Below, one piece after another: positions 23,176 through 26,688 of a stretch of 64,000 bases of DNA. The translations under genes were made by a program, and so were the position numbers. The stretch lies in the IMG/VR virus record IMGVR_UViG_3300008110_000044; one strand, written 5' to 3'. A model generated the notes under the pieces. That model was not told the DNA's origin. It did no database searches and saw only the letters and a list, made by a program, of their open reading frames with translations. The stretch is from an uncultured virus (IMG/VR IMGVR_UViG_3300008110_000044). Taxonomy: Duplodnaviria; Heunggongvirae; Uroviricota; Caudoviricetes. Positions within the stretch are counted from its first letter, which is position 1; each line of letters opens with the position of its first letter.

Positions 23176-23454
23176 TTAATTATTTAGATCAGTTCCAGTC
23201 TGATTACTTATTGGAGAATTATATGTTGAAAGAATACCTGATGATCCTGATGAAACGGTAATTGTTCCAATATTAGGATAAATATATGGATTAGTAACTG
23301 TCCAAGGAGTGGTTGTACTTGGAGTATATACAGGACCTTCTTCTGGCTCTTCCTCTTTTAAAAGAAGCAAAGCTTCCTCTAAAGTAAGGGAGCTTTCTTT
23401 AATTAAACGAGACAAAATAGTTACTTTCTGTGCATGTAAAGGAACATTATCCAT
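23176..23454 (-). CDS. Hypothetical protein
   Basis: 92-aa ORF coupled to the TerL stop. Confidence 0.55.
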   Translation of the reverse strand: MDNVPLHAQKVTILSRLIKESSLTLEEALLLLKEEEPEEGPVYTPSTTTPWTVTNPYIYPNIGTITVSSGSSGILSTYNSPISNQTGTDLNN

Positions 23455-25673
23455 TATCTTATATTTTTAAAAGGGTTTCTAGGTGGTCTCATACCTGCAG
23501 AACTCCCTTTTGAAGACCCCATGTGTCTAAAAGGTCCCCAATTTAATTTACTAAATTTCTGGGAGTTATCCAAGTTTTCCTTTGTAACTTCTATACGTTT
23601 AGCCAATCCTCTATTAGCTTGCTGCACTTTAGCAAAGGCTACCAAAGAGCAAAAAGCTACCAATCGGTCAACGTTCACACCATCCTGATATGCCTGCATC
23701 TCTTTTAGAAGCATTATATCAGGTATTCTTTCTACGCCATATATTGTTTTTATAATCTCTCCGTCTGGTTTTGTCTCATGATCTAACTCTTCTTTTAGGA
23801 ACTCTATACCATAAGAAAGAATATTTCCTTTAAAAAGAGTACCTACGTTCTTCCAGCCGTATTCCTGAAATACGTTTCTATTTGCTCCAAGATCTTTTAA
23901 GAACAAAATCATGTCTTTTGGTACAAGATATCTTTGCTTTTTACGGCTAATCATGTATTGTATGAATAAAGCTACGTTGTTCTCTACAATAGTCCAAGCG
24001 TTATACCACTCTATTAAAAGCTCTAATCTTTCATGAGTTTTGTTAAGATCATCAAAACGTCCACACCATGAGGCTACAATTCTATCTCTTTCTATGGTAT
24101 TTGTTACTTTACCATTACCCTCATCTTTAATTATTTCAACAGGATTCTTGTAAATATATATGGCACATAGTGATTCTGAAGTAGTAGTCTTACCTTCTCC
24201 TACAGGATCTACTGAGCCATAATACATTCCAAACTGAGGATCTTTAACAGGTCTTTCATAAATACAAACAACTCCTTCTTTGTCTTCTGTTTTCTTAGAT
24301 ATAGGAAACTCCATAATAGGAGTTTTTCTTGAAGGTTTGTCTACTATCTTTCCTTCAGAGTTTCTATATAAATCCAGATACTCAACAGAATAATCTTTAT
24401 CCTGTATTCTTTGCATTTGTTTAGAAACTAGGTGTGGAGGAAATATAGATTCTTTTCTAGTAGCAAAAGCTTCTTCTATGTTAGTTGGTTTCTGAGATAT
24501 CCTAAGCTGATATTGCTCAGGAGTTAGATCTCGCTTCCATTTTATTCTTTCTTCTTTAATAGCTTCTAAAGCTTCTTCAACTTTAGAATTACCATATTGA
24601 TCTATAAAAGGAGGCATTGACCACTGTTCAGGAATAAACAATCCTGTCTTTCCTATAGTTCCTTCTTTATCTATTAGATCAGATGGTACTGCATAAATAT
24701 CATTAGCTTCTGGTTGAAGTACCATAAGCTTAAGTGGTTCACAAGCATCAAGATCACCCACTGAACCAGCAGCTATAAACATACCTGTTGTAATCATACC
24801 ACTCTGCATAGCAGGTCTCATATACTCATAAGTAAGATCCATCTTTGGAGCAATCCCTCCTTCCTCATGAAAGAAATAAGTACAAGGACCACCTACACCA
24901 TTTGTTGGATCTTTTTCAAAAGAGGTACCTGTAAGAATAGATCTATTTCCTTTATAAGTATCTCTTCCATTTATTCTTACTTTGATACGCTGCTGCCAAG
25001 AAAATACTTTATCAGGATCACTTGGTCTATACCAAGCAGTATGTTCATTAAGAAATGTACGATACTCTGTAAGCATACGCCAAGTACCTTTCTCAGATAT
25101 ATAATCTTTTAGACTCGCTCCCATTTTAAGAACAGCACCTTCTTCAAAGACCCACATGTTAATTAGCTTAGCTGCATGAAAATAAGAGGAAGCAATCTGA
25201 CGTTTCTTTAAAATAGCAGAGTGTCTATAGTGTAGCTCAGCTAACTGTTCATAAAGAGCCATGTGATACTGAGCATCTCTTACCTTAGCAAAGTCAAACC
25301 TCTTTTCTTCTTTGTCATAAATAGGCAAGAAGTTTAACCACATATAGTAGTCTCGCGACAAATACCAAGTTTTCGTGACATTATTCACGACACTTTTTAC
25401 TATTATACCACTTCTGCATCTTTTCTTTTGCTCATTCCAATAGTTTATAAAGTCTTTTGTCTTTATAGGAGCTGGGCAATAGAAACCTTGTTGCTGAAAC
25501 TTTTTAGCTTCAGCATTAAATATTAAAGAAGTTTCGTCAAAATCATATTGACCAGGTTCTTTAAATAAAGAAAGAACAAAGTCTCTAAACTCCTCTCTGC
25601 TATAGAAAGTAGTTAGATCCCATTGACCATTTTGATAAGTTGGTACTTCTATATAAATATTAGATAAGGTCAC
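23454..25673 (-). CDS. terL: Terminase large subunit
   Basis: LKKRQIASS (Walker A variant), FFHEEGG (Walker B), nuclease GSVDPVG and C-terminal VNVDRLVA. Confidence 0.9.
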   Translation of the reverse strand: MTLSNIYIEVPTYQNGQWDLTTFYSREEFRDFVLSLFKEPGQYDFDETSLIFNAEAKKFQQQGFYCPAPIKTKDFINYWNEQKKRCRSGIIVKSVVNNVTKTWYLSRDYYMWLNFLPIYDKEEKRFDFAKVRDAQYHMALYEQLAELHYRHSAILKKRQIASSYFHAAKLINMWVFEEGAVLKMGASLKDYISEKGTWRMLTEYRTFLNEHTAWYRPSDPDKVFSWQQRIKVRINGRDTYKGNRSILTGTSFEKDPTNGVGGPCTYFFHEEGGIAPKMDLTYEYMRPAMQSGMITTGMFIAAGSVGDLDACEPLKLMVLQPEANDIYAVPSDLIDKEGTIGKTGLFIPEQWSMPPFIDQYGNSKVEEALEAIKEERIKWKRDLTPEQYQLRISQKPTNIEEAFATRKESIFPPHLVSKQMQRIQDKDYSVEYLDLYRNSEGKIVDKPSRKTPIMEFPISKKTEDKEGVVCIYERPVKDPQFGMYYGSVDPVGEGKTTTSESLCAIYIYKNPVEIIKDEGNGKVTNTIERDRIVASWCGRFDDLNKTHERLELLIEWYNAWTIVENNVALFIQYMISRKKQRYLVPKDMILFLKDLGANRNVFQEYGWKNVGTLFKGNILSYGIEFLKEELDHETKPDGEIIKTIYGVERIPDIMLLKEMQAYQDGVNVDRLVAFCSLVAFAKVQQANRGLAKRIEVTKENLDNSQKFSKLNWGPFRHMGSSKGSSAGMRPPRNPFKNIR

Positions 25674-25893: not shown

Positions 25894-25909
25894 AGTTTAT
25901 TTTTTTTAG

Positions 25910-25991
25910 TGCCCCATAAGAGACTCGAACTCTTATACCTTGCGGCACCAGATCCTAAGTCTGGCGTGTCTACCAATTTCACCAACGGGGC
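25910..25991 (-). tRNA. tRNA-Leu(TAG)
   Basis: GCCCCGT acceptor, CCAGA-CTTAGGA-TCTGG anticodon arm, long variable arm, TTCGAGT T-loop, A73; CCA not encoded. Confidence 0.93.
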
Positions 25992-25996
25992 TATAG

Positions 25997-26067
25997 TTGC
26001 GGGGCCTAGAGTCGAACTAGGATTTCTGGGTTATGAGCCCAATGTGCTACCGTTACACCACCCCGCG
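25997..26067 (-). tRNA. tRNA-fMet(CAT), initiator type
   Basis: CGCGGGG acceptor with C1-A72 mismatch, GGG/CCC anticodon stem, CTCATAA loop. Confidence 0.93.
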
Positions 26068-26080
26068 ATAATTATTTAAG

Positions 26081-26175
26081 CTGTAGGGGGAGGATTTGAA
26101 CCTCCAAATGAGCAGGGACTCCCCGCTCCCGCCTCCGAGACTGGGAGGTGCGTCTGCCAATTTCGCCACCCTACA
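26081..26175 (-). tRNA. Atypical class-II tRNA-like RNA, nominal anticodon GTC (Asp)
   Basis: TGTAGGG/CCCTACA acceptor, D-loop GG, CCTCC-CAGTCTC-GGAGG, 8-bp variable stem, GGAGG-TTCAAAT-CCTCC, G73. Confidence 0.75.
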
Positions 26176-26688
26176 TTATTGATCATATGCTAAGTTCTGG
26201 CCACCACGTACTTGACTTTGCTGTTCTTCCTCAAGATCTCTGAGAGTTCCTTTGAAACTCTGACGTATAGCTTCAAACTTTGATGCTGCGTTAACAAGTG
26301 CCGTAATGTTACCATCTCTACCATGCTCAATCTCTGTGGTCTCCATATATTTAGCAAGACGGTCAAGCATACTTTTAATTCCCGCATATGCTCGGTACGT
26401 TGGTGTTTCATAAAGTTTACGACACATCGTAAGCCCATTGACAATAAGATCTTCATCAGTTGAAAACTCAGCACCAACCTCCTGAAGTATAATTTCTTCT
26501 TTTTCTGTTTCTGGTACATCAAAGAATGGGTTTAAATCTGGATTAGGACAAGTCATATAAAACAGATACGCATATATCTGTAAATATTCGGTAGGATATC
26601 CGATCATGATATCATGCAAAAACTTCAAAGTAAAACAGTGTTCACTTGCAGTTACTTGTCCGTTTTGTATATCAAATAGTCTAATCAT
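26176..26688 (-). CDS. Conserved hypothetical protein (possible terminase small subunit)
   Basis: 170-aa helical protein upstream of TerL; function inferred from position only. Confidence 0.45.
   Translation of the reverse strand: MIRLFDIQNGQVTASEHCFTLKFLHDIMIGYPTEYLQIYAYLFYMTCPNPDLNPFFDVPETEKEEIILQEVGAEFSTDEDLIVNGLTMCRKLYETPTYRAYAGIKSMLDRLAKYMETTEIEHGRDGNITALVNAASKFEAIRQSFKGTLRDLEEEQQSQVRGGQNLAYDQ

What the first reader, a model, noticed from the sequence alone, without database searches (positions are those of the whole stretch)
26081..26175. Class-II tRNA-like RNA with a non-canonical anticodon loop
Seen: perfect acceptor, anticodon and T stems and G73, but the loop is CAGTCTC (A33 instead of U, pyrimidine at 37) and there is a 26-nt variable region with an 8-bp stem. 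Known: tRNA-Asp is class I; long arms belong to Leu, Ser, Tyr and Sec. Intact stems argue against decay. Inference: a decoy for anticodon nucleases, a Ser-charged tRNA (long arm plus G73), or a non-decoding tRNA mimic. It abuts the upstream stop codon and heads the fMet/Leu cluster before terL.
Basis: partly seen in the sequence, partly recalled or inferred. Interest (0 to 1): 0.7.

Follow-up and report, generated by a model that had tools for sequence, protein, structure and literature searches.

The report
tRNA-like carrier for asparagine synthesis
A lake-type phage carries an odd tRNA-shaped RNA from a widespread family that bacteria keep beside their asparagine regulator, where others keep an asparagine-making enzyme, so the RNA probably serves as a reusable carrier on which aspartate is turned into asparagine rather than as a decoder of codons.

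Summary
It belongs to a family of tRNA-shaped RNAs in crAss-like phages and Bacteroidota chromosomes. In 93 distinct phage copies found without using the loop, GUC and G73 are invariant, U1:A72 is in 92, but U33 only in 56 and a purine at 37 in 2. Variable arms across the family run from 17 to about 120 nt. In chromosomes the RNA lies divergent from an AsnC-like regulator in 31 of 42 genomes, occurs only with GatB (39 of 39) and never with true asparagine synthetase B (0 of 37). Two RNA-less genomes have asnB in that place. Best reading (0.6): a discriminating AspRS loads Asp, GatCAB amidates it, and the non-decoding RNA releases free asparagine; the phage carries a copy. No charging, amidation or expression was shown. 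Many GatB genomes lack it, the D-loop has a GatCAB anti-determinant, and one genome has UUC. Ser-charging and nuclease decoy are unlikely.

The parts
26081..26175 (-). tRNA-like RNA gene, 95 nt, short-arm member of the family; no encoded CCA
   Evidence: family model R1 scores it 82.7 bits against at most 48.4 for ordinary tRNAs
26169..26175 (-). Acceptor stem 5' strand (U1, G2); pairs with 26082-26088
   Evidence: U1:A72 and G2:C71 in 40 of 40 and 92 of 93
26150..26166 (-). Leu-type D arm (3 bp, A14 A15, G18 G19, extra base 20a); many relatives carry an inserted hairpin here
   Evidence: the label 'Leu-type' is recalled
26132..26148 (-). Anticodon arm; loop CAGUCUC at 26143-26137, GUC at 26141-26139
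26106..26131 (-). 26-nt variable region, 8-bp stem 26128-26121 with 26117-26110; long relatives hold nested helices and a GGGUWGACCAC hairpin here
26089..26105 (-). T arm with G49:C65 and A51:U63, the pairs that keep Asp-tRNA off EF-Tu
   Evidence: PMC1904265 passages; G51:C63 in 0 of 93
26081..26088 (-). Acceptor 3' strand ending C71 A72 and discriminator G73
26176..26688 (-). 170-aa ORF of unknown function whose stop codon abuts U1; syntenic in relatives
   Evidence: no family
25996..26067 (-). tRNA-Met(CAT), initiator-like (first pair unpaired)
25909..25991 (-). tRNA-Leu(TAG)
23454..25673 (-). Terminase large subunit of a crAss-like phage (context)
   Evidence: phrog_6681, E 3e-65; 24-26% identical to crAss-like phage terminases

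Best explanation
The RNA is a dedicated, non-decoding carrier for making asparagine. In its bacterial home it is transcribed from its own promoter next to an AsnC-like regulator. The cell's discriminating AspRS charges it with Asp (GUC, C38, G73, G2:C71). GatCAB recognises U1:A72 and amidates Asp to Asn. The RNA is poor for the ribosome (free position 33, pyrimidine 37, big insertions, weak T stem), so Asn is not put at Asp codons; the ester hydrolyses and AsnRS uses the free Asn. It fills the place of AsnA/AsnB. The phage carries a trimmed copy in its late transcript, presumably to raise Asn supply outside AsnC control. Shown: sequence, family, conservation pattern, gene neighbourhood, gene-content links. 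Inferred: expression, CCA addition, charging, amidation, release, and the benefit to the phage.
For: (1) Conservation is the union of two identity sets: GUC 93/93, G73 93/93, C38 89/93, U1:A72 92/93, against U33 56/93 and purine 37 2/93. Asp identity is G73, G34, U35, C36, C38; amidation needs U1-A72 (PMC9976931 sections 29 and 48). An engineered tRNA-Asp with U1-A72 and no U20A is amidated at half the wild-type rate (PMC1635274 Table 1). (2) G49:C65 and A51:U63 keep Asp-tRNA off EF-Tu, and free Asn-tRNA has a 7-min half-life (PMC1904265); the window has both pairs. (3) AsnC-like gene divergent within 1.5 kb in 31 of 42 genomes (11 of 16; 17 of 21; 3 of 5 more). In RNA-less G112 and G120 an AsnC-like gene is divergent from asnB instead. 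(4) GatB in 39 of 39 RNA-bearing genomes not picked for it; RNA in 0 of 25 and 0 of 50 GatB-less genomes. True AsnB in 0 of 37, AsnA over cut-off in 0 of 20. (5) In the first sample all 13 genomes with Bacteroidia-type AsnRS, GlnRS and GatB have the RNA; none of 22 with the other AsnRS type, GlnRS and GatB has it. AspRS: 15 of 16 RNA-bearing genomes have the short loop seen in 20 of 20 GatB-less Bacteroidia; 10 of 10 examined of those 22 have the long loop, 9 with the Gly seen in solved non-discriminating enzymes. (6) A TAnnTTTG promoter-like word lies within 70 nt upstream in 28 of 41 chromosomal loci; shuffles give 2.1 on average, 7 at most.
Against: No expression, charging or amidation was measured. 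In the second sample 115 of 141 GatB genomes lack the RNA by pattern. Of 5 such genomes rechecked, 2 had it; the other 3 show no GlnRS and no true AsnB, and the two whose AspRS was read have the short loop, so their Asn source is open and a short-loop AspRS may be non-discriminating. If so, the ordinary tRNA-Asn route is open in RNA-bearing genomes too: their tRNA-Asn keeps U1:A72 (5 of 5). The D-loop has an extra base, which lowered amidation 7- to 120-fold in N. meningitidis; no GatB change specific to RNA-bearing genomes was found. G1:C72 helps E. coli AspRS and is absent. Both copies in G140 read UUC (45 of 47 chromosomal copies read GUC). G129 has a Gly in the AspRS loop. Asn-tRNA with these T-stem pairs does bind EF-Tu. 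All 5 + 5 RNA-bearing genomes tested have long AsnB-like amidotransferases over the TIGR01536 cut-off; the two scored fail the true-AsnB model, but one of them could make Asn. On the 168 genomes new to the second sample the links are modest (GatB p 0.014, AsnB p 0.22), and no test corrects for kinship. The pattern misses members, so absence in GatB-less genomes is not proven either.
Confidence: 0.6

Rival explanations
1. The RNA is part of the asparagine regulon but is not turned over as a carrier: it binds AspRS or GatCAB as a scaffold, activator or sensor, and Asn is made on ordinary tRNA-Asn.
For: Same AsnC, GatB and AsnB links. Long copies hold a conserved variable-arm module (helices 5-8) that looks like a binding site. 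Host tRNA-Asn keeps U1:A72.
Against: The module is dispensable: 48 of 53 distinct short-arm viral hits are real members with unrelated arm sequences. What stays invariant is the aminoacylation end (U1:A72, G73) and GUC, as expected of a substrate.
Confidence: 0.17
2. It is a decoding tRNA that carries Asn (or Asp) to GAC/GAU codons, giving regulated Asp-to-Asn mistranslation.
For: Intact cloverleaf and GUC; U33 is still the commonest base (56 of 93); Asn-tRNA with G49:C65 and A51:U63 binds EF-Tu.
Against: A, C or G at 33, pyrimidine at 37 in 91 of 93, D regions up to 47 nt and variable regions up to 95 nt (117 nt in L301) fit the ribosome badly (general tRNA knowledge, recalled). It does not explain exclusion with AsnB.
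Confidence: 0.08
3. It is an Asp-RNA donor for some non-ribosomal transferase (lipid, wall or protein modification).
For: Asp identity set with EF-Tu-avoiding T stem, as in staphylococcal wall tRNA-Gly (passage).
Against: The only recurring neighbour is AsnC; no transferase among 31 window ORFs scanned; U1:A72 and the GatB link are unexplained.
Confidence: 0.06
4. It is a decoy that soaks up anticodon nucleases during infection.
For: Common in phage tRNA clusters; GUC is kept.
Against: Chromosomal copies under an AsnC-like gene with their own promoter-like word; loop unlike real tRNA-Asp; acceptor end invariant.
Confidence: 0.05
5. It is a Ser-charged long-arm tRNA, like allo-tRNAs with GUC.
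For: Long arm and G73; GUC is a common allo-tRNA anticodon (PMC5389517 passage).
Against: A72 not C72; 7/5 fold, not 8/4 or 9/3; arm length and sequence vary widely; no reason for the asparagine context.
Confidence: 0.04

Closest known systems
Indirect Asn-tRNA(Asn) pathway: ND-AspRS + GatCAB (PMC4206432, PMC1635274, passages)
   Same: Same proposed chemistry and the same GatCAB determinant U1:A72; same gene content (AsnRS, GlnRS, GatCAB, no AsnA/AsnB) that PMC4206432 noted for some Bacteroidetes.
   Different: The carrier is not tRNA-Asn; it has the Asp anticodon, so a discriminating AspRS would do; the product would be free Asn; the gene sits under AsnC.
Bacterial tRNA-Asp(GUC)
   Same: G34 U35 C36, C38, G73, G2:C71.
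   Different: U1:A72 instead of G1:C72; no fixed U33 or purine 37; long variable arm; Leu-type D arm; never G51:C63.
Non-elongator tRNA-Gly of staphylococci (passage in PMC1904265)
   Same: A tRNA-shaped RNA apparently kept off EF-Tu by its T stem and used outside translation.
   Different: That one donates Gly to the cell wall; this one would serve amino-acid biosynthesis and has large insertions.
allo-tRNAs (PMC5389517, passages)
   Same: Long arm, frequent GUC anticodon.
   Different: allo-tRNAs are 8/4 or 9/3 with diverse anticodons; this family is 7/5 with one anticodon.
asnC-asnA / asnC-asnB divergent pair (E. coli arrangement recalled; asnC-like/asnB seen in G112, G120)
   Same: AsnC-like regulator divergent from the presumed asparagine-making gene.
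   Different: The regulated gene is an RNA, not a protein.

Membership tests
tRNA (RF00005) fold | Cloverleaf with 7-bp acceptor, D, anticodon and T arms | tested here: met
   long copies keep the stems but score below Rfam's cut-off
Elongator tRNA-Asp | G34 U35 C36, C38, G73 | tested here: met
Elongator tRNA-Asp | G1:C72 first pair | tested here: not met
   U1:A72 in 92 of 93; rule
Elongator tRNA-Asp | U33, purine 37, short variable loop (recalled) | tested here: not met
   A33, U37, 26 nt in the window; U33 56/93, purine 37 2/93
Elongator tRNA-Asp | G49:U65 and G51:C63 for EF-Tu | tested here: not met
   G49:C65 83/93, G51:C63 0/93; rule
GatCAB substrate | U1:A72 | tested here: met
   rule
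GatCAB substrate | No extra base at 20a in the D-loop | tested here: not met
   extra base in the window; the hosts' own tRNA-Asn also has one (sequences)
GatCAB substrate | Amidation of the charged RNA | not testable with these tools
   needs biochemistry
tRNA-Ser | G73 and long variable arm | tested here: met
tRNA-Ser | C72 (G1:C72) | tested here: not met
   A72; rule
tRNA-Leu | A73 | tested here: not met
   G73 93/93; rule
allo-tRNA | 8/4 or 9/3 acceptor/T stems | tested here: not met
   7/5
tRNA-Sec, tmRNA, Y RNA (YrlA) and other Rfam families | Match to the family model | tested here: not met
   only RF00005 matches the RNA
AsnC regulator (NF008384), for the neighbour gene | Score over the curated cut-off of 227 bits | tested here: not met
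   best family for 4 of 4 at 146-172 bits, next family at most 80; hence 'AsnC-like'

The most novel reading that the evidence does not exclude
A tRNA-derived RNA acts as a recyclable cofactor of an amino-acid biosynthetic pathway: with AspRS and GatCAB it is the asparagine synthetase of a large part of the Bacteroidota, under AsnC control, and their phages have captured it as an RNA-only auxiliary metabolic gene.
Probability: 0.5. Interest if true: 0.93.

Novelty: new variant of a known kind. Interest (0 to 1): 0.85.

Why it matters
It offers a testable answer to why many Bacteroidota keep GatCAB although they have AsnRS and GlnRS, and how they make asparagine without AsnA or true AsnB (PMC4206432 assumed a non-discriminating AspRS). 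If right, an RNA stands where a biosynthetic enzyme gene stands, tRNA-dependent amidation yields a free amino acid on a purpose-built carrier, and phages carry an RNA as a metabolic gene. The family is largely invisible to annotation: ARAGORN and Rfam miss the long copies and call the short ones tRNA-Asp. The scaffold also shows that a tRNA fold tolerates very large D-loop and variable-arm insertions.

Tried and rejected
No whole genome is held for the window. No RNA holder was listed for the window stretch; no reads were laid. BLASTN of the window copy and one long copy against 50,697 phage records and of one chromosomal copy against 72,556 plasmids found nothing. No promoter or terminator signal above chance near the window copy; it is probably cut from the late transcript. 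Y-RNA idea: no Rfam match, and no Ro60 or RtcB among the 15 neighbour ORFs scanned; dropped. An 8-bp acceptor (pyrimidine at -1, C74 in 93 of 93) was rejected because host tRNA-Asn genes show the same flanks. Low GatB scores in RNA-bearing genomes looked like co-adaptation but are general for Bacteroidia; no separating column in 9 versus 4 GatB sequences, two more failed to translate out. tRNA-Asn first pair does not separate RNA-bearing from control genomes. The near-perfect RNA/GatB match of the first sample (15 of 16 versus 0 of 22, p 1e-9) was not reproduced as an equivalence. The AsnRS search has false negatives (G129). The metagenome scan was swamped by an unrelated repeat: 22 of 117 distinct hits passed the filter. 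G011 was dropped from the AspRS counts (wrong frame); 13 of 120 loci could not be parsed. Paper searches listed no paper on this RNA; the library lacks most subscription journals, and no supplements were read (Table S1 of PMC4206432 may bear on gene content).

Full report
What is there. The window is a crAss-like phage: terminase, portal and major head protein by PHROGs, with the terminase 24-26% identical to those of crAss-like phages.

It is a family. A pattern on the D arm and loop found 15 viral loci, all of this kind, three identical to the window. Many have variable regions of 70-95 nt that ARAGORN and Rfam miss. GUC 93, G73 93, U1:A72 92, G2:C71 92, C38 89, U33 56 (C 30, A 7), purine at 37 2, G51:C63 0. 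On 40 chosen members the structure covaries strongly. A short-arm scan gave 79 viral loci, 53 distinct, 48 real; many lie beside homologues of the window's 170-aa gene and terminase, with loops differing at 32 and 33 and arms of 17-41 nt. So the odd loop is a family trait and the arm is replaceable.

Chromosomal copies. A scan of 185,579 species genomes gave 53 hits, 8 real: two Ignavibacteriae, five Bacteroidota (one on a phage-like contig syntenic with the window) and one in a phage-like tRNA cluster. Four of the six chromosomal ones lie divergent from a gene whose best family is AsnC (below the curated cut-off, so AsnC-like). A covariance model separates members (74-145 bits) from ordinary tRNAs (at most 48).

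First sample, 151 genomes of the phylum. Model (15 genomes at 66 bits or more, only 19 candidates scored per genome) and a pattern with a free anticodon (16 genomes; built from these members) agree. All 16 have GatB, AsnRS and an AsnC-like gene, adjacent and divergent in 11; 13 have GlnRS; none has AsnA over cut-off or true AsnB. All 18 genomes with true AsnB lack GatB. Among 38 genomes with the high-scoring AsnRS type, which I take to be Bacteroidia, the RNA is in 15 of 16 with GatB and 0 of 22 without; the exception shows no GlnRS; 17 of those 22 have AsnA or AsnB. Over all 151 the RNA/GatB link alone is weak (16 of 126 versus 0 of 25, p 0.075). On an AspRS tree RNA-bearing and GatB-less genomes alternate in about five places (41 rows, weak support at deep nodes, no formal test). 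In RNA-less G112 and G120 an AsnC-like gene is divergent from asnB (the G120 asnB scores just under the cut-off); the top AsnC-like genes of 14 other RNA-less genomes have no asparagine synthetase beside them.

AspRS type. 15 of 16 RNA-bearing genomes share the short anticodon-domain loop of 20 of 20 GatB-less Bacteroidia, and none has His at the 31-equivalent site. Two solved non-discriminating enzymes show His and a long loop with Gly; the discriminating Thermus enzyme has the short loop. The 22 genomes with the other AsnRS type, GlnRS and GatB have no RNA, and 10 of 10 examined have the long loop, 9 with Gly. The role of these two residues is recalled; my search for it listed no paper. Kinship confounds all of this.

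Second sample, 191 genomes of the class, 168 new. RNA 26, GatB 141, true AsnB 25. All 26 have GatB, none has AsnB, none of 50 GatB-less genomes has the RNA (p 2.3e-4; new genomes only 0.014; AsnB 0.029 and 0.22). But 115 GatB genomes lack it by pattern. Of five rechecked, the model found it in two; the other three show a single full class Ic synthetase, as does one of the two with the RNA. The RNA is therefore a subset of GatB genomes, not an equivalent, and the pattern undercounts on both sides. AsnC-like genes are divergent beside it in 17 of 21 new loci. One genome of this sample (G237) is unpublished; it enters only the tallies. A Bacteroidetes-type promoter word (consensus recalled) precedes 28 of 41 chromosomal loci against 2.1 by shuffling.

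Mechanism. Asp identity rests on G73, G34, U35, C36, C38 (PMC9976931, sections 29 and 48 and passages). GatCAB reads U1-A72 and ignores the anticodon; a tRNA-Asp given U1-A72 and lacking U20A is amidated at half the wild-type rate, and 120-fold less well with U20A (PMC1635274, passages and Table 1). G49:C65 and A51:U63 keep aspartylated tRNA off EF-Tu, Asn-tRNA with them still binds, and free Asn-tRNA has a half-life of 7 min (PMC1904265, passages). The family conserves what AspRS and GatCAB read and lets go what the ribosome reads. An Asn-loaded RNA with GUC would corrupt Asp codons if it decoded, which gives a reason for the broken loop. I infer a carrier cycle: charge, amidate, release. How Asn is released, and whether the conserved arm module of long copies binds a partner, is unknown. 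The GatB tail reads the D-loop and lies near the variable loop (PMC2811023, passages); I found no adaptation there. The phage has no synthetase, amidotransferase or AsnC among 31 + 13 ORFs scanned and would rely on host enzymes; Asn is 6.6% of 8,649 residues in 19 late ORFs, with no comparison made. The host is not known.

Against. No expression or biochemistry; the extra D-loop base; loss of G1:C72; UUC in both G140 copies; GatB genomes with short-loop AspRS but neither RNA nor AsnB; host tRNA-Asn still has U1:A72; long AsnB-like amidotransferases are present in 10 of 10 RNA-bearing genomes tested, and only two were scored against the true-AsnB model.

Known or new. PMC4206432 (passages) lists Bacteroidetes among genera with AsnRS, GlnRS and GatCAB and proposes synthesis on tRNA-Asn. 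PMC5389517 (passages) covers 8/4 and 9/3 allo-tRNAs. PMC8007984 (passages) had nothing on this. Searches listed no description; subscription journals and supplements were not seen. Rfam 15 has no family beyond the general tRNA model. Five look-ups of this scan's earlier notes returned three notes, none describing this RNA in the lines shown.

Verdict. A real, widespread, apparently undescribed family of tRNA-like RNAs tied to asparagine metabolism. Carrier for asparagine synthesis 0.6; some role in the asparagine regulon about 0.85. Interest 0.85.

Noticed in passing
L320 (G140:C1:3852069-3852399): Two tandem copies of the RNA both read UUC (a Glu anticodon) instead of GUC; this genome's GatB scored lowest among full GatB hits of the first sample.
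   Followed up: partly
L274:2746-3044, L318, L320, L538: Tandem duplicate copies of the RNA with different variable arms in several chromosomes.
   Followed up: no
G288, G316, G260, G192, G228: GatB domain lies in open frames of about 1110 aa, suggesting fused GatCAB subunits.
   Followed up: no
G106, G110, G102, G046, G058, G062, G150: A second, weaker GatB-family hit in frames of about 645 aa, perhaps GatE-like, in bacteria.
   Followed up: no
L005, L013, L009: Short-arm copies sit near tmRNA genes in other phages; their hosts may lie outside Bacteroidota.
   Followed up: no
L484 (G060:C1:1063004-1063566): In an RNA-less genome the AsnC-like gene ends next to the tRNA-Asn gene.
   Followed up: no
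L436-L446: tRNA-Asn of 10 Bacteroidia genomes appears to carry an extra D-loop base, a GatCAB anti-determinant elsewhere.
   Followed up: partly
L321 (G064:C10:19113-19285): A second, degenerate copy with a broken 5' end, apart from the AsnC-linked copy on another contig.
   Followed up: no
L640-L758: Most metagenome hits are one tRNA-derived dispersed repeat with varied flanks, probably a eukaryotic SINE.
   Followed up: no
window 26176-26688: The conserved 170-aa ORF upstream of the RNA cluster and terL has no PHROG or Pfam family; by position it could be the small terminase.
   Followed up: no
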